Notes: generated by a model not told the origin, from the letters alone. A stretch of 64,000 nucleotides of DNA from Actinomycetes bacterium (GCA_021802485.1 JAJZXF010000001.1:46872-110871), one strand, 5' to 3'; shown: positions 9,714-31,001, counted from the stretch's first letter. Program-made: numbers and translations.

Positions 9714-9910
9714 ACTCCTCCATCTGCTCTTTGATCGTTATCCATTCGCATGCTCCGCACGGCCCCAAAGCACAGGCATCCAGGCCGGACCTTGGGACCC
9801 AGCAGGCCCCGATCACCAACCCCATCGACAGCGGGGGATCCCGCCACGAGGGCAAGCAGCGTCACTGTAGCATCACTCGCAAAGAGCATCTGGTCGATAC
9901 ATCTCGCGGC

Positions 9911-11575
9911 TCAGTGCGCAGCATGGATCGCACCATGGGGAAAGAGAACCTTCAGCGGGACGGGAAAGGTGATGGAACGAACCCCTCGTGGCGGTCGCCA
10001 GCTGAGGACCACGATGCCGTCACGATCCACAACCAGACGGGCATGCAGATCGTCGCGCAGGTATCGAACGGCAAAGGCCACCACATTGGGAGGAGCGCTG
10101 CCTATCCCCGGGGAAGCCTTCTCGTCCACCACGAACACCACTTGCCGGGCAGACACGGGTTCTTTAAGATCCATACGCAGGGCCGGAGACGATCCGATCG
10201 TCCTCAGCCCTAGAAATGGGTAGACCCACCTTCGCGCCGCGAAGCGCCCGATGATCATCGGCGTGATCACCACCTCTGCACTTGCCGGCACCTCGCTGCG
10301 TACGATCGCGAGCTCATTGCTCGTAGTCGCATTGATTTTAAGGAGGGACGCGAAAAGGTTCGGCGTCCATGCTGTCGCGATCACAAGCGTCTGCACCAGG
10401 GACGCTACAGCGAGGAGCCCAGCAAGAATCCGCACCCGCCGCGACCTTCGCCAGAGCCAGCACAGGACGAACACCCCTCCTACCGCTATGAACATCTCGG
10501 CCGGGAAGCTTTGAAACGAAATGTTGGGTTGCAGAAATCCCCCGGCATTGAGGACATTCGCGAGGAGCACGACAACAGCGACTCCGGCAGCCTCCGGTGA
10601 CATGATGCCAATAAACCCTGGGCCAGCGAGAACTCGGTAGAGATCAGTTGCGTGCTGGCCGATCATCCGCGCCGGGGCCGAGGGGTGGCGAAAGATTCCC
10701 ACGCCGATCGCGAGCAAGGCAGCTGCCCCACCGGGCAGGGTGTTAGAACCGGACAGGTAGCCGTACGCAGACGGCAGAGAAGATCCAAGGTTCGCGTGCA
10801 ATGCCGCCACGATCGCGAGCCACGATGCACCTATCACGACCAGTGCCGCGCCCTGCCGGCGCGCCGAGCGGCCGGCAAGAAGCCGGGATATCCCAAGACC
10901 CACTACATAGGTGGCCGCTACGTCCCCGCAGGCCAGCACACCAATAACCCAGACCCAGGCCCTGGGCCTCCCGCGCGTCCACATCTCGCGCGCTGCGAGC
11001 AACAGGAACAACGCAGCAAGCGCCTGAAGGTGAAAGTTGATGAGGCTTGCCCAATACACCCATGGGTTTGCCACGAGGGTGATCAGCAGCAAGAGAGCCA
11101 CCAGGATGCCGCCCCTCCTGCTCCCATGCCATCGTTCGCCAAGGATGTCAAGTCCCCACAGGTACGCAACCAGAACTGCGCCCGCGGCGCAGATGTCCTG
11201 AATTACCAGCAAGGTTATCGAGTGGTCATAGATGAGCCCGATCAGAGAAAGGGGCCACATCGCGAGTTCCAGGTGGTTCTGCAAGAACGGGGCACCGTAG
11301 TCAGTCGCCCCCCGCGCAAGCATGGTGTTGTACGGATTCAGGTGGCCATGCGCTATCTCGAAGAATGCTTGACGGTAGATGCCGGCATCGGTACTGAGCC
11401 CAGACACCAGATAAAGGCGCACACTCCAGGCGCAAAGGATTGCAAACAGCACCGCGGAGGCGGCTAGCCCAACCCTTCGCAGCAACGGCCACGGAAGCTC
11501 TGCGATCCCGGGTCCAGCCTCCACGCGATCCGGGCCGCTGTTCATGCGGGCGAGATCCGCCTCATGGTCGATCAT
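9911..11575 (-). CDS. Polytopic membrane protein, DUF2079-like (putative GT-C-type glycan-processing protein)
   Basis: 554-aa ORF with many hydrophobic segments. The stretch FLQNHLELAMWPLSLIGLIYDHSITLLVIQD resembles the conserved HF-x-P...LL..Q core I associate with DUF2079. A soluble C-terminal domain follows. Confidence 0.7.
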   Translation of the reverse strand: MIDHEADLARMNSGPDRVEAGPGIAELPWPLLRRVGLAASAVLFAILCAWSVRLYLVSGLSTDAGIYRQAFFEIAHGHLNPYNTMLARGATDYGAPFLQNHLELAMWPLSLIGLIYDHSITLLVIQDICAAGAVLVAYLWGLDILGERWHGSRRGGILVALLLLITLVANPWVYWASLINFHLQALAALFLLLAAREMWTRGRPRAWVWVIGVLACGDVAATYVVGLGISRLLAGRSARRQGAALVVIGASWLAIVAALHANLGSSLPSAYGYLSGSNTLPGGAAALLAIGVGIFRHPSAPARMIGQHATDLYRVLAGPGFIGIMSPEAAGVAVVVLLANVLNAGGFLQPNISFQSFPAEMFIAVGGVFVLCWLWRRSRRVRILAGLLAVASLVQTLVIATAWTPNLFASLLKINATTSNELAIVRSEVPASAEVVITPMIIGRFAARRWVYPFLGLRTIGSSPALRMDLKEPVSARQVVFVVDEKASPGIGSAPPNVVAFAVRYLRDDLHARLVVDRDGIVVLSWRPPRGVRSITFPVPLKVLFPHGAIHAAH

Positions 11576-11708
11576 TGAGAATCCGAGCCTAACTATCTCA
11601 TAAGCCGATCAGCTCAAGCATGTGCCAGATCATACGAGCGATGCGGGATCGATACGACTCCCAACAGATTGGCGCGAACTTTCCGCGCGCATATTCGGAA
11701 TTCGTCAC

Positions 11709-11851
11709 GCATGCATGAGCGCCGACATCTCCGAGAGCCCACGCGAATACAACAGCCCTGACGCGATCTGCAAATATAACGGGGATGCCTTCCGAAGCGC
11801 TCCCGCGACGCACCCGACGGACCGTAGCCCCCAGCATGGCTCGGACGCTAA
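11709..11851 (+). repeat. Copy A, part 1 of a segmental duplication (upstream region/5' end of the AftD-like gene)
   Basis: 143 bp matching 17823-17965 with 4 mismatches by my alignment (caaatataac vs caactatagc, accgtagc vs accgcagc, ctcggacg vs ctcgcacg). The IS insertion interrupts it at 11851/11852. Confidence 0.9.
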
Positions 11852-13991
11852 CGCCGATTTCCACGCAACCAGTTCGGCACAACATTCGGCCCCCATGGCT
11901 ACCTGGGCTCAGCGCAGCTCGAAGCGCAGGACCCTGCCTCCCCACCAGGGCACCTTGGTCTCGGCAGGGAGGCTGGCCTGGCGTAGCACCGGCGTGTAGG
12001 CGCGCCGCTCCAAGCGGACGGTGACGGCATCGGCGGTGGTGATGATCTGGCCGGGGGTTTCCAAGAAGCGGCGCTGGATGGTGTCGGGGGTCGCGTGCAG
12101 GTAGCCCGGCAGACGAACGCGCAGCGCGGCGATGAGCGCTTGAGCCAACACGGCGAGCATCACGTCCAGATCGACGTTCAAGTTGACGGTGCTCGAGAGC
12201 GCGTCGGTGCAGAAGGCGCGGATGATCTCTGCGAGGCGCTGCTCGATGGTCATCCGCCGGGCGTAGTGCTCGACGAGAACCTTGATGGACGCAGCGCACT
12301 CGTTGGTGATGATGACGCTGGGGGCGTCATGCCCGAGGCCCGTGACGACCAGCTGGCGGAGCGTTCCGGGGTAGGTGGTGAGGGACACCGCGGGGTCCTC
12401 GTGCACTCGAGGGCTGTTGTAGGGGCCGGGGCGGTCGAGGGCAATGGTCTTGAAGTCAGCGGGAACGAGGCTCTTGATGTGCCTGATCAAGCCAGGTGAG
12501 CGCATCCGCAAGGTAAGGAAGCGCACCCCCCTGGCGTCCAGTTCGCCGAGGACCTGTTGCGTCGTGACCTTTTGATCCATCACCACCATGTGCGGGTCGG
12601 CCCCCGACACCTCCCTCCAGTGGTCACAGAAGGCGAGCACCTCCCTCGCCTGGGTCGCCTTGGAGAGGTCCGCATTGGCGTAGACGAGGTTGTGGGTGCC
12701 CGAGTCCTGGGCGAAGAAGGTGAGCACCGATCTGGCCCGCTGAGATCGCTTGGGCACGTAGTGGCGCTCCAACACCGGGTCGGCTCCCCAGTGCATGACC
12801 GCATGGAAGTCCAGGTCGAAGATCGCCTCCTCACTGGTGGCGAGGCCCGAGGCGATCATCTTCTTGTCCAGTGCGGAGAGAAAGGCGCGCTGATGGTCAT
12901 GGGAGGTCCGGTAGGAGTAGTCGGTGAGCGCGGACTTCTTCGGCAGGGTCGCCATGCCGGCCAGCAACCCGGCGGTTGGGTCTGATAACAGGTCATCGAC
13001 ATGGGAGACCCGCCGGGTGCGGGTCAGCTTGAGCGACAGCAGCGACAACATCCAGGAGGTGGCTGGGATCACCCTGGTGCCCGGGTAGCTACCGGCAGCG
13101 ATCAGGCCGGGCAGGTCCATAGCCACCAGGTCCGGGACCACGAGCAACAGCCCCGCCCGAACGGTGTCGATGCGATGTGGCCAGGTGTCGAAGTCGATCA
13201 CCTTTGCCCGGGGGAGCCTGGTGTCACGCCCAAAGGTAGTCGGTGAGATGCTCGAGACTGGCTCAGGGTGGCGAAGCAGGCGACCAAAGCCCTCCTCGGC
13301 GAGGATCTCCCCGACCGAAGTCCGATTCAGTGGGCTCCCCTCCTGGCCCAGACGGGCGGAGATCTCGTAGGTGGACAGACCCTCCCGGCGCAGTTCGATC
13401 ACCCGGCCCCTCGCCGCGTCCTTCTTTGGGGCGCTGCCCGGCGCCGGCCCGGGCCGCCCCGGCGGGGCGAACAGTGCGAGCTTGCCGGCACGCAACTGCC
13501 GGGCCAGGTCAACCATCGCCCAACGGGTGTAGCCGAAGCGCTCCCCCGCCTCGGCCCAGGAGAGCCCGTCCAGGTAATGGGCGCGCAGGGCCTCGTAGCG
13601 GCGCTGGTTGAGCTGGCTCGGAGACCTGAAGAACTCCGCCCCCTGCTGTTGGGGGGATCTACCTGGCATCCCAGCCCCTTCGATGAAGAACCCTGGCCCG
13701 GCCCCGCGTCGCCGCCTGGAACCGCCCTGCACCTTTTCCCTTGCCCCAAGCCCGATCTTGGTGGACGACCGGTCCGCCTGCCAGCGACTGCCCCTGCCCG
13801 CTGCGCCTGTGCACGAATCCCATAGCTGTAGGCTAGCAGGAGGATACCCACAATGCCATGATTGACTCACTCATACTGCCCAGCGCGAACTTTCCAGCCA
13901 GTACGCGGGCATTCTCGCGTCTTCCCCGCGCTTGAACCCCCAACTGCGAGCTGGGTTTCTTGTGGTCAACTCCCTGTTGTGGAAATCGGCG
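11852..13991 (-). mobile_element. Insertion sequence, 2140 bp, single DDE transposase (IS4/IS1634-like superfamily; family not assigned)
   Basis: Terminal inverted repeats CGCCGATTTCCAC (11852-11864) and its exact reverse complement (13979-13991). Flanking 4-bp direct repeat CTAA at 11848-11851 and 13992-13995. The uninterrupted paralogous site at 17962-17965 has a single CTAA. Confidence 0.9.
11909..13669 (-). CDS. DDE transposase of the IS
   Basis: The ORF track gives 11909-13870. The likely start is ATG 13669 (MPGRSPQQ...), preceded by GAAGGGG. N-terminal HTH-like segments are present (GYTRWAMVDLARQL, LSTYEISARLG). The C-terminal YARRMTIE fits the Y-x2-R-x3-E signature of IS4-superfamily transposases. 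Confidence 0.85.
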   Translation of the reverse strand: MPGRSPQQQGAEFFRSPSQLNQRRYEALRAHYLDGLSWAEAGERFGYTRWAMVDLARQLRAGKLALFAPPGRPGPAPGSAPKKDAARGRVIELRREGLSTYEISARLGQEGSPLNRTSVGEILAEEGFGRLLRHPEPVSSISPTTFGRDTRLPRAKVIDFDTWPHRIDTVRAGLLLVVPDLVAMDLPGLIAAGSYPGTRVIPATSWMLSLLSLKLTRTRRVSHVDDLLSDPTAGLLAGMATLPKKSALTDYSYRTSHDHQRAFLSALDKKMIASGLATSEEAIFDLDFHAVMHWGADPVLERHYVPKRSQRARSVLTFFAQDSGTHNLVYANADLSKATQAREVLAFCDHWREVSGADPHMVVMDQKVTTQQVLGELDARGVRFLTLRMRSPGLIRHIKSLVPADFKTIALDRPGPYNSPRVHEDPAVSLTTYPGTLRQLVVTGLGHDAPSVIITNECAASIKVLVEHYARRMTIEQRLAEIIRAFCTDALSSTVNLNVDLDVMLAVLAQALIAALRVRLPGYLHATPDTIQRRFLETPGQIITTADAVTVRLERRAYTPVLRQASLPAETKVPWWGGRVLRFELR

Positions 13992-15151
13992 CTAAGGCAA
14001 GTGGGCCGCTCTCTCATGCGAAACACCCGGTTGAACCTGTCCTTGGCGGTCCATCTCGGGCTAGCCGCGATTGCCTACGTGCCTATGCTGCTGGCAAAAC
14101 CCGGCCTGGTAGCAGCCGACACGAAGCAGTACCTCTACCTCGATCCTGGCCGCATGCTTCACGCGGCCGCCTATATGTGGAACCCGAATTCGAACCTCGG
14201 GACGATCACCCATGAGAACATCGGATACCTGCTTCCCATGGGGCCGTTTTTCTGGATCACAGCTCACCTCGGCATAGCAACCTGGGTCGCTCAGAGGCTC
14301 TGGGTTGGGACAATCCTGTTCGCAGCCGCGGCTGGCGTGCTTTTCTTGTGCCGAACGCTTGCAGTGCCTGGTCCAGGGCAACCGATCTCAGCGATCGCGT
14401 ACATGTTGAGCCCTTACTTCCTCCAGTACGTGGGAAGGATGTCGGTCATCCTTCTCCCGTGGGCAGCCCTTCCCTGGCTCGTAGCGCTGGCAGCGCGCTC
14501 CCTACGCCAGCGTAGCTGGCGCTATCCCGCGCTTTTCGCTCTGGTTGTTGCACTGGTCAGCGGGGTGAACGCAACGGCAATCCTCTACGCTGGCCTCGCT
14601 CCGGTCGCCTGGATCGCGTACGCGACCTGGGTTCGTCGCGAAGTCCCCGCAAAGCGAGCAGGAATCGTCGTAGCGCAGATCGGGCTGCTTACAACCTTGG
14701 CCTCTCTGTGGTGGGCAGCTGGTCTACGGATCGAAGCTGCGTACGGGATCAATGTGCTCAAGTACACCGAAACGCTTCCCGCGGTTGCAAGCACCTCCCT
14801 CGCCTCGGAGTCACTTCGAGGACTCGGCTACTGGTACTTCTACGGCGGCGGGCGACTCGGCCCCTGGCTCGGAGCATCGGTCCAGTACACCCAGCAGGTC
14901 TGGCTTGTCGCAGCGAGTTTTGCGGTTCCCGCTCTTGCAATATTGGCCGCGATCATCACGCGATGGCGTCACCGCTCCTACTTCGTGCTGATTGGGTTGA
15001 CCGGCCTCGCTCTCAGCGTCGGCACGTACCCGTTCAAGCACCCATCGATCCTCGGCGGTGCGCTCAAAGCATTCATGACCAACACCACAGCAGGGCTCGC
15101 TCTGAGGTCCACTGACAGAGCGACGCCATTGCTCCTGCTCTCCACGTCGAT
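13992..15151 (+). pseudogene. Truncated duplicate (copy A, part 2) of the 5' ~385 codons of the AftD-like GT-C gene
   Basis: 1160 bp that appear identical to 17962-19121 (constant offset 3970). All ORF-track translations in several frames are identical and my line-by-line checks agree. The reading frame stops at 15153-15155, right after the junction with GT2-derived sequence. Confidence 0.85.
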
Positions 15152-15639
15152 GTGATGCTGCATCCAGATGGCCAGTACGACCCGGAGGTCATACCTCACC
15201 TCGTCGAGTCCATCAAGGCGGGCCGGGCCGAGATGGTGCTCGGCAGCACGATGCTGGTGCCGGGGACCGCACGCCAAGGAGGAATGCCGTTGTACCGGTT
15301 CGTGTCCAACTGGCCGTCCTCACGATGATCGAGAACCTCATTATGAGAACGCGCTTCTCCGAACTGCACACCGGCTACCGGGCCTACTCCACGAACTTCC
15401 TGCGTACCGTACCATTCATGCGTAACAACGATAGATTCGTAGTCGACACGCAAATCATCGCCCAGGCGATGGCCTTCGAGCAACGGGTAGTGGAGGTTCC
15501 TATCCAGACCCGCTACGCCGCCGACTCCTCATCCACCAGCATGGCAGCCAATGTGCACTATGGAGTTGGCACTCTGTGGACCATGGTGCGGCTCTTCTTG
15601 CACCGTCACGGCCTGCCATGCTGGCTATTCAAGCCATGA
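15152..15639 (+). pseudogene. Family-2 glycosyltransferase (Dpm1/PpgS-like) remnant, 5'-truncated and frameshifted
   Basis: From the junction it reads (D)VMLHPDGQYDPEVIPHLVESIKAGRAEMVLGS...GGMPLYRFVSN, then a stop at 15326-15328. The +1 frame continues LAVLTMIENLIMRTRFSELHTGYRAYS...FVVDTQIIAQA...VEVPIQTRY, the typical GT2 C-terminal half. The N-terminal ~90 aa with the DxD region is missing. Confidence 0.8.
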
Positions 15640-15790
15640 GCCGTAGTGGAGCGAGGCCAGGACAAGAGCCCGTGTTGTTACTATCTGCGTAACTTGAAGT
15701 CACGATAAGGAATCAAGAGTGGCCAATGGCAAAGTGACCGATGCAAGAGGTGCCAGCTCGATTGGTTGGAGAGCGGGAACAAGCTCGAGC

Positions 15791-17731
15791 ATGACCGAGC
15801 AAGGCCAGGGCGCACCTCCCCGGATCAATAGGTTCAGACACCGCCTGAAGGTCGGGCTCTTGGTCTTCTTCTCCTATCAGGCCATCAGCGTCCTCATGTG
15901 GCAGAATGTTTGGTTTGCCCACCCGTCTTCGGTGATGACCTGCACATGTGTTGATGCAGCTCATTCGCTGTGGTTTCTAGCATGGGTTCCGTACGCGATC
16001 ACCCATGGGCACAGCCCATTCTTCTCAACGTGGATGTACGCCCCAAAGGGCGTGAACTTGTTGGCGAACACATCGACGCCGCTTCTTGGTTTGCTGCTCG
16101 CGCCTGTAACATGGCTGTTCGGTCCTGTCACCGCGTTGAACCTTGCGCTGGTCGTGGCTCCAGCAGCATCTGCAGGGGGGGGCTACTTCGCCGCGCGGCA
16201 CTGGACCGCATCAGTGCCTGCGTCTTTCATTGCCGGTCTGATCTTCGGCTTCTCGCCGTTCGTGCTCTCAAGCCTTTCGTTCGTCGAGCTGAACCTGGCC
16301 ACCCTGGCACTGCTTCCTCTGATGCTCGTGGTGGCAGACGAGATTCTCGTACGCCAGAGGGGCAACCCGTTGTTGTGGGGCACGCTCCTCGGTGTCCTCG
16401 CGACGGCGCAGTTCTTCATCTCGTCGGAGTTCTTGGCCATATTCGCCGTCCTGGCGGTTCTCGGAACAGCACTGCTCGTCATATTGAACCCCCGGAGAAC
16501 GCGAGAGAGCTTGCCTTATGCCGCAAAGGCTGTCGGTGTTGCCACTGTGGTTGGCGGAGTTCTTCTTTCCTGGCCAGTGTGTTTCGAGCTGGCAGGTCCA
16601 CAGCATTTCTCGGGACCACCGTGGCCTTCCATCTGGCTATACGGCGCCATTCCGGGGCAGTTGGTGCTCCCAAACGCGGTGCGGGTGCGTAGCCAGTTCG
16701 GACATCCGTTCCCTCCTGGCCCTTATCTCGGGCCTGCGGTCGTTGCCGCATGCGCTGTCGCTCTAGTCGTTTGCTGGAGAGATCGCACCGTCCGATTCTT
16801 TGCCATCATGTTCGCACTCGCTGTTTCATTCTCCCTCGGTGGCATGCTGCACACCTCCCCTGGACTGGGTGGACTCCATCCTGGAGTCTGGCTGCCATGG
16901 CAGGTATTTGAGCACCTACCGGTCATCGGGTCAATCTCACCGCTGCACTTCAGTGCGGTTGTGCCCCTCTTCGCATCCATCGTCATAGCGAAAGGACTGG
17001 AACAGATGGGGACGCTCGCTTCCAATGCCTTTCGGATACGACCGAAGGCGACCTTGCTTCACAACGTAGCGGTGGCGAGGGTTCTCGAGTTGACGACAAT
17101 CACCATCTTGGCCCTGGCGACGCTCCTCCCGTACGCGGGCGTCTTCCCACTGCCGTACGCCGTGCAGGATACGAGAGTTCCTCGATGGTTCACTACAAGT
17201 GGTTTGAAGACTCGTTCTGGCGAGACCGTGCTGGTCATTCCATACCCGACGCCGGCCACGGCTGAACCTCTAGTCTGGCAGGCAGCCGCTGGGATGCATT
17301 TCAAGATCGTGGGTGGATGGGCTCTCCTGCCGGGAAGCAATGGACGCGCTGACCCCGGGCTGGAATCAGGACCAGCGCAGAGCGCATTGCGCGGCCTCAG
17401 CCTGCCAGGGCAGAAGACGCCCTTGGCTTCTCCGGGTTTAGTATCCACCGTCACAAGGGCGATCTCGCGGTGGGGTGTCTCCACGGTGGTCGTCACCGAC
17501 AGGGGGGAATCGCCCTTGTACGCGCTTGGGTTCTTCACGGCTGCTCTCGGACGCGCACCTGTTCTTCAAGGGCGCTTGTGGGTCTGGTATCACGTTCGCA
17601 ACCACCCGGCTCCTTACGGAGCGTCCGCCCGCACAGTTCTTGACTGTGCAAATGAGGGGGCTTCGCATGCGAACGATCCCATGTACGTACCGCACTGCGT
17701 ATCATCGCGGTCGCTATCAACCCATCCCTGA
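15791..17731 (+). CDS. Polytopic membrane protein with C-terminal extracytoplasmic domain (putative GT-C-like glycosyltransferase; family uncertain)
   Basis: The ORF track gives 15719-17731; ATG 15791 (MTEQGQG...) is the likelier start. It has more than 10 hydrophobic segments, then a soluble ~200-aa tail. It lies between the GT2 remnant and the AftD-like gene. Confidence 0.65.
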   Translation: MTEQGQGAPPRINRFRHRLKVGLLVFFSYQAISVLMWQNVWFAHPSSVMTCTCVDAAHSLWFLAWVPYAITHGHSPFFSTWMYAPKGVNLLANTSTPLLGLLLAPVTWLFGPVTALNLALVVAPAASAGGGYFAARHWTASVPASFIAGLIFGFSPFVLSSLSFVELNLATLALLPLMLVVADEILVRQRGNPLLWGTLLGVLATAQFFISSEFLAIFAVLAVLGTALLVILNPRRTRESLPYAAKAVGVATVVGGVLLSWPVCFELAGPQHFSGPPWPSIWLYGAIPGQLVLPNAVRVRSQFGHPFPPGPYLGPAVVAACAVALVVCWRDRTVRFFAIMFALAVSFSLGGMLHTSPGLGGLHPGVWLPWQVFEHLPVIGSISPLHFSAVVPLFASIVIAKGLEQMGTLASNAFRIRPKATLLHNVAVARVLELTTITILALATLLPYAGVFPLPYAVQDTRVPRWFTTSGLKTRSGETVLVIPYPTPATAEPLVWQAAAGMHFKIVGGWALLPGSNGRADPGLESGPAQSALRGLSLPGQKTPLASPGLVSTVTRAISRWGVSTVVVTDRGESPLYALGFFTAALGRAPVLQGRLWVWYHVRNHPAPYGASARTVLDCANEGASHANDPMYVPHCVSSRSLSTHP

Positions 17732-17822
17732 CATCGCCGTCGAGGCGACCTGCCGGGAAAGCGGGGCGGCACCTCGACATAGCATTGGTGCGAAGCCGTC
17801 GCCGCGCGACTCGAAAAGGTCA

Positions 17823-19121
17823 GCATGCATGAGCGCCGACATCTCCGAGAGCCCACGCGAATACAACAGCCCTGACGCGATCTGCAACTATAGCGGGGAT
17901 GCCTTCCGAAGCGCTCCCGCGACGCACCCGACGGACCGCAGCCCCCAGCATGGCTCGCACGCTAAGGCAAGTGGGCCGCTCTCTCATGCGAAACACCCGG
18001 TTGAACCTGTCCTTGGCGGTCCATCTCGGGCTAGCCGCGATTGCCTACGTGCCTATGCTGCTGGCAAAACCCGGCCTGGTAGCAGCCGACACGAAGCAGT
18101 ACCTCTACCTCGATCCTGGCCGCATGCTTCACGCGGCCGCCTATATGTGGAACCCGAATTCGAACCTCGGGACGATCACCCATGAGAACATCGGATACCT
18201 GCTTCCCATGGGGCCGTTTTTCTGGATCACAGCTCACCTCGGCATAGCAACCTGGGTCGCTCAGAGGCTCTGGGTTGGGACAATCCTGTTCGCAGCCGCG
18301 GCTGGCGTGCTTTTCTTGTGCCGAACGCTTGCAGTGCCTGGTCCAGGGCAACCGATCTCAGCGATCGCGTACATGTTGAGCCCTTACTTCCTCCAGTACG
18401 TGGGAAGGATGTCGGTCATCCTTCTCCCGTGGGCAGCCCTTCCCTGGCTCGTAGCGCTGGCAGCGCGCTCCCTACGCCAGCGTAGCTGGCGCTATCCCGC
18501 GCTTTTCGCTCTGGTTGTTGCACTGGTCAGCGGGGTGAACGCAACGGCAATCCTCTACGCTGGCCTCGCTCCGGTCGCCTGGATCGCGTACGCGACCTGG
18601 GTTCGTCGCGAAGTCCCCGCAAAGCGAGCAGGAATCGTCGTAGCGCAGATCGGGCTGCTTACAACCTTGGCCTCTCTGTGGTGGGCAGCTGGTCTACGGA
18701 TCGAAGCTGCGTACGGGATCAATGTGCTCAAGTACACCGAAACGCTTCCCGCGGTTGCAAGCACCTCCCTCGCCTCGGAGTCACTTCGAGGACTCGGCTA
18801 CTGGTACTTCTACGGCGGCGGGCGACTCGGCCCCTGGCTCGGAGCATCGGTCCAGTACACCCAGCAGGTCTGGCTTGTCGCAGCGAGTTTTGCGGTTCCC
18901 GCTCTTGCAATATTGGCCGCGATCATCACGCGATGGCGTCACCGCTCCTACTTCGTGCTGATTGGGTTGACCGGCCTCGCTCTCAGCGTCGGCACGTACC
19001 CGTTCAAGCACCCATCGATCCTCGGCGGTGCGCTCAAAGCATTCATGACCAACACCACAGCAGGGCTCGCTCTGAGGTCCACTGACAGAGCGACGCCATT
19101 GCTCCTGCTCTCCACGTCGAT
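17823..19121 (+). repeat. Copy B (intact, in-gene) of the 1.3-kb segmental duplication
   Basis: Matches 11709-11851 plus 13992-15151. It contains the unoccupied IS target CTAA at 17962-17965. Confidence 0.9.
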
Positions 19122-22100
19122 TCTCCTCGGGGCAGGCATAACTGCCATCTACAAGAGGGTCAAGGTAACCGGCGCGCTAGTGGCGGTCCTTGTCGCCTGC
19201 CTAGTCGCTGCAGCGAACCCAGCGATGTTCAACGGTTCGACCATAGCGAGGGACTTCGTTCGCCCACCTCAAGTCCCCTCCTACTACTATCAAGCCGCGC
19301 GCTGGTTGGAGTCCCACGGCGCGGGCACACGGGTCCTTGCTATCCCCGGCTCGAACTTCGCAGCTCACTCGTGGGGGGACACCATCGACCCGGTAATGCC
19401 AGGGTTACTCGTAAACCGACCCTACGTGGTTCGCGCCCAGCTGGTCCAGGGGTCCCTTCCAACCGCCAACCTTCTCTACGCTCTGGACGCCCCACTACAG
19501 GGGGGACGGTTCAGCCCGGCAACCCTTGCCCCACTTGCACGCCTCATGAGCGCTGGTGATGTCCTGGTGCGTTCCGACCTCTCATACTGGCGTTACAACC
19601 TTGCCCGACCACGCGCGACATGGCAGTTGATCGCGGCGTCCCCAGCCGGAAGGCTAGGCCATCCCGTTGGCTTTGGCGCAGCTGTGCCCAACCTCTCCCC
19701 GATCGCAATGCTGGACGAGACGGCCCTTGCACAGAGCCCGGGGCTCGCAACCCCGCCTCCATTGGCCACGATTGCGGTTGCAAATCCGAGACCAATCACA
19801 CGCGTTGAGTCTCCCCAGGGGGTGCTGTTGCTAGACGGGAATGCATCCGGCCTGGTGGCAGCCGCTGACACCGGCCTGCTCGCCAACAACCCGACCATCC
19901 TCTACGCAGCATCGGTTTCCCGGAACGCCAAGGAGATGGCACGGCTCCTCAAGGCCAGCAGCGACCTGGTCCTCACCGACAGCAACCGCTTGCGCGGTTA
20001 TCGATGGGACTCGTTGAGGGCCAACGTCGGCTACACGGAGACTGCTCATCACCACTCGACGAGCTACGACCCGACCAACGCCCCAATGAACATCTTCCCT
20101 GGAGCGCCAAAGGACACCTATACGCTTGCCAAGCAGCTGGGCGTCGCCTCTGTGACAGCCTCCTCGTACGGCAATCCGGTGACCTTCACCCCCGAGGACC
20201 GCGCGGCGATGGCGATTGATGGAAACCTGAACACCGCATGGCAGACGGGGGCATTTTCCTCCGCGCGCGGCCAGTGGCTGCGCATCAAGCTGCTAAAGCC
20301 AGTTACCACGAACAGCATTGACCTCGTACAGCCGCTACATGGGAACCCCCTGCGCTGGATCACAAAGGTCACCATCACCTTTGACGGGAAACACCCCCTA
20401 ACAGTCCACCTCGGACCAACGTCCCGGACAGCCGCGGGTCAGGTCGTGCACTTCAACACGAGGACCTTCAGGACCGTGAAGATCACCATCGACAACACCA
20501 GCCAGGCGTTCGGCTCCAACACCGCCGCGTTGAACGCTGTCGGCTTCGCCGAGGTCCGGATCGACCACCAGCACGTCAGCGAAGTGATATCCATGCCTCA
20601 GGACATGCTTCGCGCTGCGGGCAAAGCGTCACTTTCGCACAGGCTGACACTGATCATGACCAGACAACGGGTAGCGCCCGTGCCTCCACGAAGCGATCCC
20701 GAGCGCTACATGGCCCGATCCTTCTGGCTCCCGACACAGCGGACGTTCACTTTGTCGGGAACGGCGCGTATCTCGGCCCTTATACCAGACAGCATGATCG
20801 ATGTCCTTTTCGGCGTCCCAGGCTCGAACGGAAGCGGCATCGTCGCCACATCGCTGGGGCGGCTCCCGGGGGACTTGAACGCTCGCGCGTCCTCCGCTCT
20901 CGACGGCAACCTATCAACCTCCTGGAGCCCAGGATTTGGCTACTCCCACCAGATCGGGGTGTGGTTGCAGTACAGCCTCCCGCACCCGATCACGTTCAAT
21001 CACCTGAACCTCGCCGTAGTTGCAGACGGCCGCCACTCTGTGCCAACTCGAATCAGGGTCAGCACCAACCGCGGCTACCGCGACGTCACGCTTCCACCCA
21101 TCGCAGATAGCTCGGTCCCAAACGCCACCGTGTCTGTGCCGGTCCACTTCGCACCCCTCACCGGGAAGAACATCAGGATCACCGTCGAGGCGATACGAGC
21201 CGAGAAGACGAGGGACTACTACTCCGGCAGCCCGATCACCGAGCCGGTCGCCATCGCCGAAGCAGGCATCCCGGGCGTCAAGATGCCACCGGTTCCAGCA
21301 CAACTACCAGCTAGGTGCCAATCGAACCTCATCTCGATCGACGGCAAGCCTGTGAGCGTGAAGATAGTCGGAAGCACAAGACGCGCCGCGGGGCTGGGAG
21401 GCATGAGCATCGTCCCGTGCGGAGCGGACGCTCGGGGCATCACGCTCGGACCCGGCTACCACACGGTCCAAACCGTCTCAGGCCATCAAACAGGTTGGAA
21501 CATCGACCGGCTCACCCTCGACTCAGCCCCTGGAGGAGGGCCCGAACCCGCTGCATCAACTCCCTCCTCAGCTACAGCACCTGCGAGTGCGCTTCCCAAC
21601 CCCCCAGCGCCAGGACCAACACCAGCGATAACCGTCAAGAAAGTCGGTCCGACCGTGTCACGCGTCCGAGTCTCTGCCACATCGCATCCGTTCTGGCTGG
21701 TGCTGGGGGAAAGTATCAATCGCGGATGGACTGCAGTTACGTCCAATGGCCACTCCCTGGGGCCGCCGCAGTTGATCGACGGCTTCGCTAACGGCTGGTA
21801 CGTGAACCCCGCCAAGCTCGGGCTTAATGGCAAACAGCCGTTTACGATCACCCTTGACTGGACCCCACAGAACTTGGTCTGGATCGCACTCGTTCTATCT
21901 GCGATAGCGATTCTCGCCTGCCTGCTGCTCGGCGCATGGCCGCTTAGCCTCTGGCCACGTCAAGGGGTCTCGGATGAACGGACGTCACGATTCGCTGGGC
22001 GCAGGACAAGACGCTTACTTCGAAGAAGTAAGGGCAGATCAGCCCTTTCTCCAACGCAAATGCAGGAACGAGGGAGTATCGCAACTCCTGCGTGGAGATG

Positions 22101-22563
22101 CGTTCGCGAGAGCGATGCTCACTCGCCCGTGCTTGCATCGCCGTTCGTAGCCGGTGGATCAAGACCAAGGATGCTCACCGGCATCCTTGCTGCGTCTGCG
22201 TCAGGCGGGATCACGGCCATCACCGTGACCCCGGAACTCGGTCTGGTGGTTGGGATTGTGGCCGCAGCCGTATCTGCCGTTTCACCACTACGATGGCTGC
22301 TGTCTCTGGGTGCCCTGGGTGCAGCGTCAGCAGCCGGGGTGTACACAACTGCGATGCAATACATCCACCATTATCCCCCCGGCGCCTTCTGGCCCGGGCA
22401 CTTCGAGACTGCCAGCCAGCTTGCCTGGGTTGGGATCGCGCTCTTGGCTGCAGATGCCCTGGTCGAGATGGCACGCTGGGGACGCGCCAGCGCCTATGGC
22501 TTCACCCGTCGTGACACCCCAGACACGTCGGCGGGTGGCAACGACTCCGGCGGGGGCGCCTGA
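17950..22563 (+). CDS. AftD-like alpha-(1->3)-arabinofuranosyltransferase-family GT-C membrane glycosyltransferase with discoidin/F5-8-type-C-like domains
   Basis: The ORF track gives 17899-22563 (1554 aa); ATG 17950 or 17986 are likelier starts. The N-terminus (ADTKQYLYLDPGRML...WNPNSNLGTITHENIGYLLPMGPFFW...WVAQRLW) resembles the DUF3367/AftD N-terminal signature as I recall it from mycobacterial AftD. Two carbohydrate-binding-like modules are present (AMAIDGNLNTAWQTG and SSALDGNLSTSWSPG), with C-terminal TM helices. Confidence 0.75.
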   Translation: MARTLRQVGRSLMRNTRLNLSLAVHLGLAAIAYVPMLLAKPGLVAADTKQYLYLDPGRMLHAAAYMWNPNSNLGTITHENIGYLLPMGPFFWITAHLGIATWVAQRLWVGTILFAAAAGVLFLCRTLAVPGPGQPISAIAYMLSPYFLQYVGRMSVILLPWAALPWLVALAARSLRQRSWRYPALFALVVALVSGVNATAILYAGLAPVAWIAYATWVRREVPAKRAGIVVAQIGLLTTLASLWWAAGLRIEAAYGINVLKYTETLPAVASTSLASESLRGLGYWYFYGGGRLGPWLGASVQYTQQVWLVAASFAVPALAILAAIITRWRHRSYFVLIGLTGLALSVGTYPFKHPSILGGALKAFMTNTTAGLALRSTDRATPLLLLSTSILLGAGITAIYKRVKVTGALVAVLVACLVAAANPAMFNGSTIARDFVRPPQVPSYYYQAARWLESHGAGTRVLAIPGSNFAAHSWGDTIDPVMPGLLVNRPYVVRAQLVQGSLPTANLLYALDAPLQGGRFSPATLAPLARLMSAGDVLVRSDLSYWRYNLARPRATWQLIAASPAGRLGHPVGFGAAVPNLSPIAMLDETALAQSPGLATPPPLATIAVANPRPITRVESPQGVLLLDGNASGLVAAADTGLLANNPTILYAASVSRNAKEMARLLKASSDLVLTDSNRLRGYRWDSLRANVGYTETAHHHSTSYDPTNAPMNIFPGAPKDTYTLAKQLGVASVTASSYGNPVTFTPEDRAAMAIDGNLNTAWQTGAFSSARGQWLRIKLLKPVTTNSIDLVQPLHGNPLRWITKVTITFDGKHPLTVHLGPTSRTAAGQVVHFNTRTFRTVKITIDNTSQAFGSNTAALNAVGFAEVRIDHQHVSEVISMPQDMLRAAGKASLSHRLTLIMTRQRVAPVPPRSDPERYMARSFWLPTQRTFTLSGTARISALIPDSMIDVLFGVPGSNGSGIVATSLGRLPGDLNARASSALDGNLSTSWSPGFGYSHQIGVWLQYSLPHPITFNHLNLAVVADGRHSVPTRIRVSTNRGYRDVTLPPIADSSVPNATVSVPVHFAPLTGKNIRITVEAIRAEKTRDYYSGSPITEPVAIAEAGIPGVKMPPVPAQLPARCQSNLISIDGKPVSVKIVGSTRRAAGLGGMSIVPCGADARGITLGPGYHTVQTVSGHQTGWNIDRLTLDSAPGGGPEPAASTPSSATAPASALPNPPAPGPTPAITVKKVGPTVSRVRVSATSHPFWLVLGESINRGWTAVTSNGHSLGPPQLIDGFANGWYVNPAKLGLNGKQPFTITLDWTPQNLVWIALVLSAIAILACLLLGAWPLSLWPRQGVSDERTSRFAGRRTRRLLRRSKGRSALSPTQMQERGSIATPAWRCVRESDAHSPVLASPFVAGGSRPRMLTGILAASASGGITAITVTPELGLVVGIVAAAVSAVSPLRWLLSLGALGAASAAGVYTTAMQYIHHYPPGAFWPGHFETASQLAWVGIALLAADALVEMARWGRASAYGFTRRDTPDTSAGGNDSGGGA

Positions 22564-22899
22564 GAATAGGTGGCCGGAATTGCGCCACAGGCCCCTGCCT
22601 ATAACGGGAAGCCTGTCGGGGATGAGTCGGAGTCGACATTTGAACGTGGCCTCACAGCCAAGTCCGTGCACTGCGGCAACATCCGCTCCAGCGATCTGAA
22701 CTGGAGCATTCTCATGCCCGATGCGAGTCTGCGCTCGACAAGGTAAGCTGGTGAACGCCCAGTCCGGGAAAGTGATCACCGCCATCAAAGGCTGCGAGCA
22801 CCGGAAGGTCCCCGCTCGATCTCGGAACTGAGTAACCTGGGTGCATCGATGCGGCCGCCCAATGCCTCTGTTGTTACTCCCCCATGAGATGATCTACCT

Positions 22900-23604
22900 A
22901 TGACCACCATTGCTGACCTTCTTGAGCGCCCCGTCTATGCCATTCCCCAGGTTGACGGTCTCCTTGGCCTTAATCCGGGAACGGCCCGTCGGTGGATCGA
23001 GGGCTATAGGCGTGGGAGCAAGGCATACCCTCCGATCGTTCGAATCGAAGCCACCGCTGACGACAGTGTTACCTGGGGAGAGTTCGTCGAGACCCGGTTG
23101 CTCCGTGAATATCGTGATCTTGGTGCGCATGTCAGACTCATGCGTCCGGCCGTCGAGAAACTTCGTGAGGAGTTCAACACCAAGTACCCCCTGGCTTACG
23201 CACGCCCCTATCTCGATGTTGATGGCAGGGAGCTGGTGCGACGCATACAAGATGAGGTGCATCTCGACAAGCGCGTCACCCTTGTCACCGTTCGAAACAA
23301 CCAGTTGATCCTGACTCCTCAAGCTGAGCGATTTGTGAGTTCAGTCGACTTCCATGCGACGGAAGGGATTGTTGAGCGTGTGCACCCGGCCCCCGATCTC
23401 AAAGAGGTCGCCATGGACCCGCTCCGCCAGTTTGGCGAGCCGGTTGTGAGAAGTGTCAGGACGGACATCATTGCCGAACAGATGCGAGCGGGAGACAGCA
23501 TGGAGATGATTGCAGAGTTATATGAACTTTCATCCATTCAAGTTGAGGCTGCGGTCCGCTTCGAACTGATTCGAGGGAAGCCGGTAATGGAAACGGCTGC
23601 CTAA
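22900..23604 (+). CDS. HTH + DUF433 protein (putative antitoxin, VapB45-like architecture)
   Basis: 234 aa. The C-terminal MDPLRQFGEPVVRSVRTDIIAEQMRAGDSMEMIAELYELSSIQVEAAVRFE matches the DUF433 pattern (DP..FG.P...G.R...). An N-terminal HTH-like segment is present (LLGLNPGTARRWIEGY). Confidence 0.7.
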   Translation: MTTIADLLERPVYAIPQVDGLLGLNPGTARRWIEGYRRGSKAYPPIVRIEATADDSVTWGEFVETRLLREYRDLGAHVRLMRPAVEKLREEFNTKYPLAYARPYLDVDGRELVRRIQDEVHLDKRVTLVTVRNNQLILTPQAERFVSSVDFHATEGIVERVHPAPDLKEVAMDPLRQFGEPVVRSVRTDIIAEQMRAGDSMEMIAELYELSSIQVEAAVRFELIRGKPVMETAA

Positions 23605-23609
23605 TTCGA

Positions 23610-24023
23610 ATGACCGCCGACTTGAAGAACCTCCGGTTCTTTGTCGACGAGAACATCCTGGGTGTCGGAAAATCGCTAGCTATCGCTCGCGATGACGCCA
23701 TCCATACAGGTCATCCGCTGATCCCCGAGGTTCCAGTCGGCACGCTCGATACCGACTGGATTCCCGCCGTTGCAGCTCGCAATCTCGTGGTCATCAGTCG
23801 TGACAAGGCGATACGAACCAAACCGGCAGAGATTGCACTACTTCGAGCCCACGACCTTCGCATCTTCTGGATTGCCGGGAAAAAGGATCGCGGTACGTGG
23901 GGCAACCTCGTCCTTCTGGTCCGCCGGTGGGAAGAGATCGAGAGCATCGTTGCCAACCGCGGACCGGGTCCCTGGTTTATGGCAATGGGCGAAACCAGAA
24001 TTTCCGAGTTCGCCGTGCAGTAG
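23610..24023 (+). CDS. PIN-like/DUF5615-type putative toxin nuclease
   Basis: 137 aa, starting 5 nt after the DUF433 gene. It carries FFVDENI near the N-terminus, then TDWIP and VVISRDKAI, acidic/Ser-Thr positions typical of PIN-like (Mut7-C/DUF5615) domains. Confidence 0.6.
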   Translation: MTADLKNLRFFVDENILGVGKSLAIARDDAIHTGHPLIPEVPVGTLDTDWIPAVAARNLVVISRDKAIRTKPAEIALLRAHDLRIFWIAGKKDRGTWGNLVLLVRRWEEIESIVANRGPGPWFMAMGETRISEFAVQ

Positions 24024-29183: not shown

Positions 29184-29492
29184 TATCCTCCAACACGTCT
29201 GCTTCTTCGATCCTCTGGTCGGGTACGGTCACATCTGGACTTGCCTGCCGGCACTGCCGGGCAGAGTGCCCGAGGGCTCACCTCCCGAGCACGACCGCGG
29301 CTGCGGCGTGTCACGAGATCTTGTGTTGCTTGGTGGATGCCATGGCCAATTCTCACACGCCGGTCGAAGAATCGCGAGTCGAGAGGCGACTAAGTCAGGA
29401 GTCTCTTGGGACATCAGGACGTACGTGTGCGCATTAGCCGGCTAGTAGCCGTTAGCAGTAGCGACCCCACGAGGACTCGCTACCTTGGCCTA

Positions 29493-30212: not shown

Positions 30213-30297
30213 TATCGTACCATGTCATGTCCTAGCAATAACGAACACTGAAAGGCCGAGCAGTCCTAACCCCACGAGGACTCGCTACCTTGGCCTA

Positions 30298-30933: not shown

Positions 30934-31001
30934 TATCGTACCATGTCATGTCCTAGCAGTAACGAACACTGAACGGCCGAGCAGTCCTAACCTTCCATTG
31001 G

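What the first reader, a model, noticed from the sequence alone, without database searches (positions are those of the whole stretch)
11709..19121. 1.3-kb segmental duplication of the AftD-like gene 5' end, with an identity step exactly at the IS insertion point
Copy A (11709-11851 plus 13992-15151) duplicates copy B (17823-19121) at a constant offset of 3970 bp for the second part. The 143 bp left of the IS differ from copy B at 4 positions. The 1160 bp right of the IS appear 100% identical. The switch from about 97% to 100% identity coincides with the IS. That suggests either recent gene conversion of the right segment, with the IS acting as a heterology barrier, or a composite origin. The arrangement (P-N)-(GT2 fragment + membrane gene)-(P-N-rest) fits Campbell-type integration of a circular intermediate. 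It also fits a tandem duplication of a 3970-bp unit followed by deletion.
Basis: seen in the sequence. Interest (0 to 1): 0.6.

Follow-up and report, generated by a model that had tools for sequence, protein, structure and literature searches.

The report
IS-split orphan copy of aftD start
In one strain of an uncultured soil actinobacterium, a foreign 2.7-kb piece of a cell-envelope sugar gene cluster sits in front of a large glycosyltransferase gene, leaving a truncated, IS-disrupted spare copy of that gene's start upstream; this is ordinary strain-level genome shuffling, not a new kind of system.

Summary
Window 11709-11851 matches 17823-17965 with 4 mismatches. Window 13990-15151 matches 17960-19121 with 0 mismatches in 1162 bp. 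A 2140-bp IS1380-like element (13-bp perfect terminal repeats, CTAA duplication) sits exactly between the two parts.

Comparative data change the interpretation. The organism is an Acidimicrobiales MAG whose aftD-like locus exists in two forms:
- Form 1 is DUF2079(-)|aftD (wild-type strain L068 and genus relative L008).
- Form 2 is 615aa-GT2-Mem-aftD (L078).

The junction at 11708/9 is therefore native, not a deletion scar. The Mem-to-aftD junction is colinear with form 2. Only 15151/2 (aftD codon 408 fused to mid-GT2) is clearly illegitimate.

All four mismatches are private to the upstream copy. Their density (2.8%) equals the synonymous divergence (0.028) between this strain's remaining aftD and L068. 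Everything from the right IS end to 19535, including both long copies and 414 bp beyond the repeat, is identical to L068. The step is therefore a haplotype boundary left by homologous recombination (inter-strain import or copy-to-copy conversion) that ends at or near the IS.

No independent assembly spans the repeat, so the arrangement and the 100% identity still need long reads. This is ordinary genome dynamics of low to moderate interest.

The parts
9911..11575 (-). DUF2079 membrane-protein gene, the native left neighbour of aftD in locus form 1
   Evidence: Pfam PF09852, E 8.6e-13. It has the same position and orientation in wild-type strain L068 and in genus relative L008.
11576..11708 (.). 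Native divergent intergenic region (unique sequence) left of copy A. It differs from L068 at about 6 of 133 positions, including GAATTC here against GATATC in L068.
   Evidence: Alignment of A, B and L068; mismatch map.
11709..11851 (+). Copy A, left part (P*): the aftD upstream region plus the first 22 codons. It carries 4 substitutions private to this copy (11774 C>A, 11779 G>A, 11825 C>T, 11844 C>G).
   Evidence: Copy B, L068 and L078 agree at all four sites. Outgroup L008 agrees with B at 3 of 4. The region is 100% identical in L004 and L070.
11848..11851 (.). Left copy of the 4-bp target-site duplication CTAA
   Evidence: Copy B has a single CTAA at 17962-17965.
11852..13991 (-). 2140-bp IS1380-like insertion sequence. 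The inverted ends are at 11852-11864 and 13979-13991. The 586-aa transposase is at 11909-13669 (-).
   Evidence: - Family assignment: NF033539 IS1380 E 6e-14 over profile positions 13-417 of 419, below the curated cut-off; PF13701 weak.
- More than 5000 homologues were found; the 120 listed (after one 99% hit) are 75-82% identical.
- Copies 99.4-99.5% identical lie at two other loci, L081 and L082.
- In window-type strains the exact transposase is found only here.
13992..15151 (+). Copy A, right part (N): aftD codons 22-408, truncated. It begins with the second CTAA and is 100% identical to 17962-19121.
   Evidence: Pfam GT-C_AftD E 1.4e-54 on the 407-aa ORF. Also identical to L068.
15147..15156 (.). 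Junction J1 (15151|15152): aftD codon 408 fused out of frame to the middle of a GT2 gene. This is the only clearly illegitimate joint, with 1-5 bp of microhomology (TCGxT). The truncated ORF stops at TGA 15153-15155.
   Evidence: comparison with the continuation of copy B and with the intact GT2 of L078. The junction is present in L001-L003 and L083.
15152..15639 (+). 3' half of a polyprenyl-phosphate glycosyltransferase (GT2) gene. It is 5'-truncated and frameshifted by a 2-bp insertion at about 15314-15315.
   Evidence: Alignment to the intact 249-aa GT2 of L078. The L078 GT2 matches PF00535 at E 9e-20. It also gives AglJ/PpgS-like NCBIfam hits, all below cut-off.
15719..17731 (+). Intact 670-aa multi-pass membrane protein gene (Mem), probably a GT-C-like glycosyltransferase. 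It is foreign to locus form 1.
   Evidence: - No Pfam hit at default thresholds; weak DUF2079 similarity, E 0.01; no PDB relative.
- The best homologue is 86% identical, in the form-2 strain L078. The next best is 39%.
- Against L078, dS is 0.23, compared with 0.066 for aftD and 0.045 for uvrB; dN/dS is 0.34.
17732..17822 (.). Spacer downstream of Mem, colinear with the Mem-aftD spacer of form 2 (L078). It ends at junction J2 (17822|17823).
   Evidence: Alignment of B with L078.
17823..19121 (+). Copy B: the uninterrupted upstream region plus aftD codons 1-408, part of the intact gene
   Evidence: Its 143-bp part equals L068 except at one site (17842) and equals L078 over the last 122 bp.
17899..22563 (+). 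Intact AftD-like GT-C glycosyltransferase gene (1554 aa from ATG 17899; gene callers elsewhere start at ATG 17950)
   Evidence: Pfam GT-C_AftD E 1.8e-81 plus F5/8 type C and CBM_AftD. Orthologues were found in 60 Acidimicrobiales/Actinomycetota MAGs.
17966..19535 (.). Block with zero differences from wild-type strain L068. It extends 414 bp beyond the right end of the repeat. From 19536 onward the divergence is 1.2% (dS 0.028).
   Evidence: Mismatch map; dN/dS by segment.

Best explanation
This is a real, strain-specific structural variant in a dimorphic cell-envelope glycan locus of an uncultured Acidimicrobiales species.

**Resident form of the locus.** The resident form is DUF2079(-)|aftD(+).

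**Origin of the inserted DNA.** DNA from the alternative form of the same locus (615aa-GT2-Mem-aftD) was integrated as follows:
- On its right side, integration used homology in the aftD upstream and 5' region. The Mem-spacer-aftD junction is colinear with the alternative form.
- On its left side, a single illegitimate joint fuses aftD codon 408 to the middle of the GT2 gene.

This leaves the resident promoter plus 408 codons as a truncated 'orphan' upstream of a 2.67-kb foreign insert and the intact gene. It is an allelic merodiploid of the homology-facilitated illegitimate recombination type. It is not a tandem duplication plus deletion.

**The IS.** An IS1380-like element that is mobile in this species inserted at a CGCTAA site in the orphan and made a 4-bp duplication.

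**The identity step.** The step is a haplotype boundary.
- The 143 bp left of the IS keep the resident lineage's sequence. It is 2.8% from the L068-type haplotype, which is the same as the neutral divergence of the rest of the resident aftD.
- Everything from the right IS end to 19535 is L068-type. This includes both long copies, the downstream 143 bp, and 414 bp past the repeat.
- A homologous-recombination tract therefore ended at or within about 100 bp of the IS, which is a 2.1-kb heterology. The tract was either an import from another strain or conversion of the orphan by the intact copy.

**Shown:** the anatomy, the junction sequences, the two locus forms, the polarity of the four changes, and the divergence pattern.
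**Inferred:** the order of events, the donor of the tract, and the role of the IS as a barrier.
For: **Anatomy.**

**Native left junction.**
- L068 (99.4% identical strain) has DUF2079-P-aftD with no IS and no insert.
- L008 has the same order, and most of the 60 relatives keep the MT/DUF2079 side next to aftD.

**Alternative form.**
- L078/L079 are 98.7% identical in the uvrB-MT flank and carry 615aa-GT2-Mem-aftD.
- Copy B aligns colinearly with L078 across J2.
- J1 interrupts an otherwise intact GT2 at its HPDGQYD motif.

**The insert is older or foreign.**
- It is about 11% divergent at the nucleotide level from the L078 cassette, against about 2.5% for aftD.
- Mem dS is 0.23, against 0.066 for aftD.

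**Polarity of the four changes.** Copy B, L068 and L078 agree at all four sites, and L008 agrees at three of them.

**Divergence pattern, window versus L068.**
- 10 differences in 11653-11844.
- 0 differences in 17966-19535.
- dS 0.028 in 19537-22479.
- 4/143 = 0.028 in P*.

**Diversity of N among strains.** There are 0-2 differences within the population and 20 in L078.

**The IS is mobile.** Copies 99.4-99.5% identical lie at two other loci, each with a CGCTAR left flank.

**Same genome.** The S contig and the P*-IS contig are binned in the same MAG twice: GCA_027410785.1 (L002 and L004) and GCA_021843735.1 (L083 and L070).

**Mechanism precedent.** HFIR and orphan formation are described in PMC3240628 and PMC5361080.
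Against: - No independent assembly crosses the 1162-bp repeat on both sides. Exact products that would prove IS-N-S or S-P-N-rest contiguity are not on record.
- Only one wild-type form-1 strain and one form-2 strain are available for comparison. The resident lineage's original N is unknown, so the left end of the tract is located only to between 11844 and the first site that would have been informative.
- The 21 bp at 17823-17843 of copy B match form 1, not L078. This would instead fit a second illegitimate joint and a true duplication of resident sequence.
- Copy B shares T at 17842 with copy A against L068.
- If the orphan's N is resident DNA, an extra conversion step is needed, or N must have been identical already.
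- The differences in 11653-11704 cannot be polarised.
Confidence: 0.55

Rival explanations
1. True duplicative insertion in a single genome. A 2671-bp foreign fragment was captured with two illegitimate joints (J1 and J2), for example by template switching during replication or by end-joining between sister chromosomes. This duplicated 1299 bp of resident sequence. The copies were identical at birth. The IS inserted later, and the 143-bp remnant then acquired four changes, either in situ or by a short import that came with the IS.
For: - Copy B has form-1-type sequence in 17823-17843 and shares T at 17842 with copy A.
- There is short microhomology at both joints (GCA at J2; TCGxT at J1).
- The perfect identity of N needs no conversion.
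- Copy B lacks the IS and keeps a single CTAA.
Against: - J2 reproduces exactly the colinear Mem-spacer-aftD arrangement of form 2. That would be a coincidence for a random illegitimate end.
- Four private changes in 143 bp against none in 1162 bp (p 1.4e-4) need an added ad hoc event.
- The model does not explain why the zero-difference block with L068 runs to 19535, or why P* divergence equals the haplotype dS.
Confidence: 0.2
2. Assembly artefact. One version is that the contig threads a collapsed repeat node twice, which would make the interior of N identical by construction. The other is that it chimerically joins co-occurring strains, for example one with X-P*-IS-N-rest and another carrying N-S-P-N, or a 3970-bp circle or tandem array of S-P-N.
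For: - All independent short-read assemblies break at the repeat or bypass it (L001-L004, L069-L075, L070).
- L070 goes X-P*-IS-N-rest without S, while S is a separate contig in the same MAG.
- A C/T polymorphism exists inside N at 14701/18671.
- The window's own products are not on record elsewhere.
Against: - A contig crossing two 1162-bp perfect copies is unlikely to come from a k<=141 short-read graph, so long reads are the likelier source (inference).
- The linear order is the only path that uses each verified junction once.
- S is co-binned with the IS-bearing contig in two MAGs.
- Unitig ends show that at least the first and last 141 bp of N are truly identical in both contexts in sample ERZ27237474.
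- S carries no replication or mobility gene.
Confidence: 0.15
3. Tandem duplication of the 3970-bp unit (GT2'-Mem-P-N) in a form-2 genome, followed by loss or replacement of the upstream part. This is the first reader's second model, amended so that the 'deletion' becomes an allelic replacement by form-1 DNA carrying the IS.
For: - J1 is what a tandem-duplication joint of that unit would look like.
- GT2-Mem-aftD is native in form 2.
- The N copies would be identical at birth, and P* would come from the form-1 donor.
Against: - A plain deletion is excluded, because 11708/9 is the native form-1 junction.
- Both flanks of the window are L068-like (99.6-99.75%). They are only 96.6-98.7% identical to the form-2 strain.
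- The genus relative L008 has form 1. This history would therefore need two switches of locus form in this lineage.
Confidence: 0.07
4. Campbell-type integration of a circular 3970-bp molecule (S+P+N) by a single crossover in N.
For: The A-S-A topology is what a single crossover with a circle gives. The reverse reaction between the two N copies would release such a circle.
Against: - The putative circle has no replication, integrase or mobilisation gene.
- The circle would itself have to contain J1, so its origin presupposes the structure it is meant to explain.
- A single crossover does not create an identity step.
Confidence: 0.03

Closest known systems
Homology-facilitated illegitimate recombination and 'orphan' gene fragments in variable loci (Rhs, CDI and T6SS effector-immunity arrays)
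   Same: - Incoming DNA from an alternative allele is anchored by a conserved stretch shared with the resident locus.
- Its other end joins illegitimately.
- The displaced resident piece survives as a truncated orphan next to the new module (PMC3240628; PMC5361080).
- Here the anchor is the aftD 5' region and the orphan is P*-N.
   Different: - The orphan here is a 5' fragment with its promoter, lying upstream. The classic cases leave 3' fragments or immunity genes downstream.
- The locus makes envelope glycans, not toxins.
- The mechanism is inferred from sequence only, and a two-joint duplicative insertion is not excluded.
IS1380-family insertion sequences (e.g. ISEcp1)
   Same: - A single-ORF DDE transposase aligns over almost the whole IS1380 model.
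- The element has short terminal inverted repeats and a 4-bp target duplication.
- Several insertion sites occur within one species.
   Different: - The score is far below the curated family cut-off (51.5 versus 180 bits).
- The transposase has an extra N-terminal HTH region, and the element is 2140 bp long.
- There is no sign that it mobilised adjacent DNA. The flank on its IRR side is colinear with the wild-type locus.
Gene conversion / concerted evolution of bacterial duplicates limited by heterology (own knowledge: tuf genes, rRNA operons, IS-interrupted repeats)
   Same: There is perfect identity of a long repeat up to a large insertion, with divergence beyond it.
   Different: - The identical block is also identical to another strain and overshoots the repeat by 414 bp.
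- Inter-strain recombination therefore explains it at least as well as copy-to-copy conversion.
Allelic dimorphism and cassette exchange at surface-polysaccharide loci (O-antigen and capsule loci; own knowledge)
   Same: - Conserved flanking genes (uvrB-coaE-MT on one side, aftD-GT4 on the other) bracket alternative glycosyltransferase sets.
- This occurs in genomes that are 98.7% identical in the left (uvrB-MT) flank (96.6% in the right flank).
- The cassette is much more divergent than its flanks.
   Different: The strain carries a partial hybrid of both forms, with a broken GT2, rather than a clean replacement.

Membership tests
Direct segmental duplication flanking a unique spacer | Two copies in the same orientation, colinear, with sharp homology boundaries | tested here: met
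   The copies are 1299 bp each, once the IS and one CTAA are removed. The period is 3970 and the spacer is 2671 bp.
Direct segmental duplication flanking a unique spacer | Both copies lie on one DNA molecule | not testable with these tools
   No reads are available. All independent assemblies break at or bypass the repeat. The only support is co-binning of the S contig with the IS contig in two MAGs.
IS1380 family insertion sequence | DDE transposase that meets the family model | tested here: inconclusive
   NF033539 gives E 6e-14 and 51.5 bits against a cut-off of 180, covering profile positions 13-417 of 419. PF13701 gives 28 bits against a cut-off of 34.7, although close homologues carry precomputed PF13701.
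IS1380 family insertion sequence | Terminal inverted repeats and a 4-5 bp target-site duplication | tested here: met
   There are 13-bp perfect inverted repeats, and CTAA lies on both sides where the empty site in copy B has one CTAA. A second copy (L081) is flanked by CTAG/CTAA.
IS1380 family insertion sequence | Mobility: the same element in different genomic contexts | tested here: met
   L081 (between an RHS fragment and PemK) and L082 carry copies 99.4-99.5% identical, with unrelated flanks.
Tandem duplication followed by deletion | The left boundary of copy A is a novel deletion joint | tested here: not met
   The sequence across 11708/9 is the native DUF2079|aftD intergenic sequence of wild-type strain L068.
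Homology-facilitated illegitimate recombination product | One junction lies within homology shared by donor and recipient | tested here: inconclusive
   Copy B is colinear with form-2 strain L078 across J2. However, the 21 bp at 17823-17843 are form-1-like, and only one distant form-2 reference exists.
Homology-facilitated illegitimate recombination product | The other junction is illegitimate, with little or no microhomology, and joins unrelated sequences | tested here: met
   J1 fuses aftD codon 408 to mid-GT2 out of frame, with 1-5 bp of microhomology.
Gene conversion between the two copies | The identity tract is confined to the repeat and bounded by heterology, and the donor is the paralogous copy | tested here: inconclusive
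   The tract starts at the IS. But the same block is identical to strain L068 and continues 414 bp past the repeat end. The donor therefore cannot be assigned.
Campbell-type integration of a circular element | A circular intermediate or an element with replication or integration functions | tested here: not met
   No integrase, replication or mobilisation gene lies in 15152-17822. Whether a circle exists cannot be tested without reads.
AftD-like GT-C glycosyltransferase (the duplicated gene) | N-terminal GT-C_AftD domain plus C-terminal carbohydrate-binding modules | tested here: met
   PF11847 E 1.8e-81, PF00754 and PF24607. The enzymatic specificity was not tested.

The most novel reading that the evidence does not exclude
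This reading proposes an IS-locked merodiploid.
- The resident aftD was first knocked out by the IS.
- It was then rescued by importing a block (N-S-P-N...) that supplies an intact promoter and 5' end.
- In the resulting arrangement, recombination between the two long copies would regenerate the IS-disrupted null allele.
- Only the short, already diverged 143-bp segment could delete the insert viably.
- An otherwise unstable duplication would thus become self-stabilising.
- It would also fix a horizontally acquired GT-C-like gene (Mem) next to aftD.
Probability: 0.1. Interest if true: 0.45.

Novelty: new member of a known kind. Interest (0 to 1): 0.28.

Why it matters
The finding documents, in an uncultured Acidimicrobiales population, how a variable envelope-glycan locus is remodelled. 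Two locus forms coexist in genomes that are 98.7% identical in the left (uvrB-MT) flank of the locus. A hybrid form carries a truncated orphan, a mobile IS, and recombination tracts only 1-2 kb long.

For annotation, the upstream 'AftD' fragment and the GT2 piece are pseudogenes.

For assembly, the locus is a 1.16-kb perfect repeat that short-read MAGs break or bypass. One public MAG contig therefore shows aftD as IS-disrupted when an intact copy probably exists.

The finding does not reveal a new mechanism or system.

Tried and rejected
**Exact-product look-ups.**
- I searched for the products that would prove contiguity across the repeat: the 1554-aa and 1537-aa AftD and the 397-aa IS-fused truncated product. 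None is on record.

**Truncated copies elsewhere.** A protein search with the N fragment found no truncated near-identical copies.

**Other haplotypes.** A scan of JGI metagenome contigs for the 44-nt core of the 143-bp segment gave 0 hits.

**RNA element or promoter in the 143-bp segment.**
- Rfam gave nothing.
- The sigma-70 consensus scan gave nothing.
- A conserved TGCAACTATAGCGGGGATG motif is shared only with L008. It may be a -10 element for a leaderless mRNA. Two of the four changes fall in it, but at non-consensus positions, so no functional conclusion was drawn.

**ISEcp1-like one-ended transposition carrying the divergent left flank.** Rejected. The flank is perfectly colinear with the wild-type locus and no second copy of it exists.

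**Real deletion derivative (X-P*-IS-N-rest, L005/L070).** Judged more likely an assembler bypass, because the same MAG holds the S contig L083.

**Form-2-like aftD remainder.** I tested whether the remainder of the window's aftD resembles form 2, as it would after a long donor tract. It does not: there are 21 window-private and 14 L068-private sites relative to L078.

**Relaxed constraint as the cause of the four changes.** Rejected, because the equally non-functional N copy has none.

Full report
**1. The observation**

- Window 13990-15151 equals 17960-19121 with no mismatch in 1162 bp (offset 3970).
- Window 11709-11851 equals 17823-17965 except at 11774, 11779, 11825 and 11844 (offset 6114). 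With a 1-bp indel the similarity reaches 11704.

Between the two parts lies a 2140-bp element (11852-13991).
- It has perfect 13-bp inverted ends, CGCCGATTTCCAC, which occur nowhere else in the window.
- It is flanked by CTAA on both sides, while the uninterrupted copy has one CTAA.
- The chance that all four differences fall in the 143-bp part is 1.4e-4.

**2. What the parts are**

*The duplicated gene.*
- The ORF at 17899-22563 is a 1554-aa AftD-like GT-C glycosyltransferase with discoidin-type carbohydrate-binding modules.
- The upstream copy carries its promoter region and codons 1-408. It is split at codon 22 by the insertion sequence and ends at a TGA 2-4 nt past position 15151.

*The insertion sequence.*
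- It encodes a 586-aa transposase that aligns over almost the whole IS1380 model, but below the curated cut-off.
- The transposase belongs to a very large family in soil Actinomycetota.
- Copies 99.4-99.5% identical sit at two unrelated loci in co-occurring strains, each with a CGCTAR left flank. It is therefore an ordinary, mobile IS of this species.
- In window-type strains the exact transposase is found only at this locus.

*The single-copy spacer, 15152-17822.* It consists of three parts.
- The 3' half of a polyprenyl-phosphate GT2 gene. It is 5'-truncated inside the HPDGQYD motif and frameshifted by a 2-bp insertion.
- An intact 670-aa membrane protein gene with only weak GT-C-like (DUF2079) similarity.
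- 91 bp of downstream spacer.

**3. Origin and synteny**

The AftD protein finds 60 loci in Acidimicrobiales/Actinomycetota MAGs.
- In nearly all of them uvrB-coaE-methyltransferase lies on the minus strand and aftD follows directly on the plus strand.
- In the closest genome (L008, 79% amino-acid identity) a DUF2079 gene lies between them, as in the window.

A strain 99.4% identical to the window (L068, GCA_027410705.1) has DUF2079-P-aftD with neither the IS nor the spacer.
- The sequence across 11708/9 is therefore the native junction.
- This excludes 'tandem duplication followed by deletion' in its plain form.

The closest homologue of the membrane protein (86% identity) is in L078/L079 (GCA_054636835.1).
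- That genome is 98.7% identical to the window in the uvrB-MT flank.
- It carries a second form of the locus: MT(-)|615aa-GT2(intact, 249 aa)-Mem-aftD.
- Copy B of the window aligns colinearly with this form across the Mem-spacer-aftD junction.
- The point 15151/2 falls in the middle of the intact GT2.

So the clearly illegitimate joint is J1 at 15151/2, with 1-5 bp of microhomology.

The spacer is far more divergent from the L078 cassette than aftD is.
- Nucleotide divergence is about 11% for the spacer and about 2.5% for aftD.
- Mem dS is 0.23, against 0.066 for aftD and 0.045 for uvrB.

The spacer therefore came from an unsampled lineage, or is an old allele.

**4. The identity step**

At all four mismatch sites, copy B, wild-type L068 and form-2 L078 agree. 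The outgroup L008 agrees at three. The changes are therefore private to the upstream copy.

Between the window and L068 the differences are distributed as follows:

| Region | Differences |
|---|---|
| Flanks | 0.2-0.4% |
| 11653-11844 (directly left of the IS, reaching into unique sequence) | 10 differences |
| 17966-19535 (N plus 414 bp beyond the repeat) | none in 1570 bp |
| 19536-22750 | 1.2% |
| 19537-22479 | dS 0.028 |

The 4/143 = 0.028 in the upstream remnant is therefore just the neutral divergence between the resident aftD haplotype and the L068-type haplotype.

The anomalous part is the zero-difference block. It comprises both long copies, the downstream 143 bp, and 414 bp of single-copy aftD.

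N itself is nearly invariant in the population. L068 has 0 differences from the window, L069/L070 have 1, and L071 has 2. L078 has 20.

The most economical reading is that a homologous-recombination tract of L068-type sequence ends at the IS, or within the uninformative stretch next to it. The tract was either imported from another strain together with the spacer, or copied from the intact copy onto the orphan. The data add one point: the block is not confined to the repeat and matches another strain. That favours a composite, inter-strain origin at least as much as copy-to-copy conversion.

**5. A coherent history (inferred)**

- DNA of the alternative locus form was integrated into a form-1 genome. 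The integration was anchored by aftD homology and had one illegitimate end.
- This is the pattern known as homology-facilitated illegitimate recombination. It also explains orphan fragments in Rhs and T6SS loci (PMC3240628, PMC5361080).
- The IS inserted into the orphan. Alternatively, an IS-bearing resident allele recombined with such a block.

Two observations keep a rival alive. Copy B has form-1-like sequence in 17823-17843, where L078 differs, and it shares T at 17842 with copy A. These would fit a true duplicative insertion with two illegitimate joints. Against that rival, the second joint would then reproduce the native form-2 arrangement by coincidence.

**6. Reliability of the assembly**

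- Independent short-read assemblies either stop at the repeat with k-sized overlaps (L001-L003, L072-L075) or stop inside it (L004, L069).
- One assembly bypasses the loop: L070 runs X-P*-IS-N-rest.
- The MAG that holds L070 also holds a separate spacer contig, L083, with both junctions and the copy-B variant of P. The bypass is therefore probably an assembler shortcut, not a deletion strain.
- The same co-binning is seen in GCA_027410785.1.
- The unitig overlaps show that the outer 141 bp of N are truly shared by both contexts.
- No independent contig crosses N on both sides, and products diagnostic of the full arrangement are not on record.
- The linear order is therefore likely; I estimate about 0.8. 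Both the order and the perfect identity of the interior of N need long reads.

**7. Verdict**

- The feature is real in the sequence, and its anatomy is now explained by known processes. These are allelic exchange at a dimorphic glycan locus, one illegitimate joint, an ordinary IS insertion, and short homologous-recombination tracts among co-occurring strains.
- It is a new instance of known kinds of event, of low to moderate interest.
- Its main practical value concerns annotation and assembly of this locus in MAGs.

Noticed in passing
window 29464-30992: There is a second strain-specific duplication. Window 29464-29942 equals 30269-30747 (99.8%), and 30014-30271 equals 30735-30992 (98.4%). 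This gives two adjacent DUF8275-like ORFs (29493-30212 and 30298-30933, minus strand). Wild-type strain L068 has a single copy.
   Followed up: partly
window 22900-24023: A DUF433 + PIN toxin-antitoxin-like gene pair lies directly downstream of aftD. It is present in the window and L068 but absent from the form-2 strain L078 and from L008. It is thus another indel polymorphism at this locus.
   Followed up: partly
window 9764-11729 versus L078 7119-12092: The locus is dimorphic in genomes that are 98.7% identical in the left (uvrB-MT) flank. One form has DUF2079 on the minus strand. The other has a 615-aa weakly YfhO/PTPS-like membrane protein, an intact GT2, and the 650-aa Mem homologue on the plus strand.
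   Followed up: partly
window 11699-11704: The window has GAATTC where L068 has GATATC. One 6-bp palindrome is exchanged for another in the divergent DUF2079/aftD intergenic region. This could be an operator-like site. It is part of a cluster of differences that could not be polarised.
   Followed up: no
window 17880-17901 (and 11766-11787): The motif TGCAACTATAGCGGGGATG is conserved in L008 (23 of 25). It contains a -10-like AACTAT 7 nt before ATG 17899, which suggests a leaderless aftD mRNA. More distant relatives carry TGCTTACACTACCGGGG instead. Two of the four copy-A changes fall inside this motif.
   Followed up: partly
L083 position corresponding to window 15153: In MAG GCA_021843735.1 the spacer contig has T>A at 15153. 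This removes the TGA that terminates the truncated aftD ORF just after the illegitimate joint.
   Followed up: no
L004 and L069 (GCA_027410785.1), window 14655 and 18642: Two contigs of the same MAG end inside the repeat only 16 bp apart (repeat offsets 666 and 683). It looks as if an original bypass contig had been cut by a contig-cleaning step. A C/T polymorphism lies 29 bp further on (14701/18671).
   Followed up: no
L081 3575-5724; L082 1-2146: The IS seems to prefer CGCTAR targets. All three known left flanks read (R)CGCTAA/G, which resembles the element's own right end plus duplication (CGGCG-CTAA). The intact copy B still carries such a site at 17960-17965.
   Followed up: partly
window 18147-19535 versus L071 and L074: L068 is identical to the window in this block. 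Its clade-mates L071 and L074 differ from the window here (L071 at 18157, 18443, 19290 and 19317; both at 19290 and 19317). This suggests a recent exchange of this block between the L068 lineage and the window lineage.
   Followed up: partly
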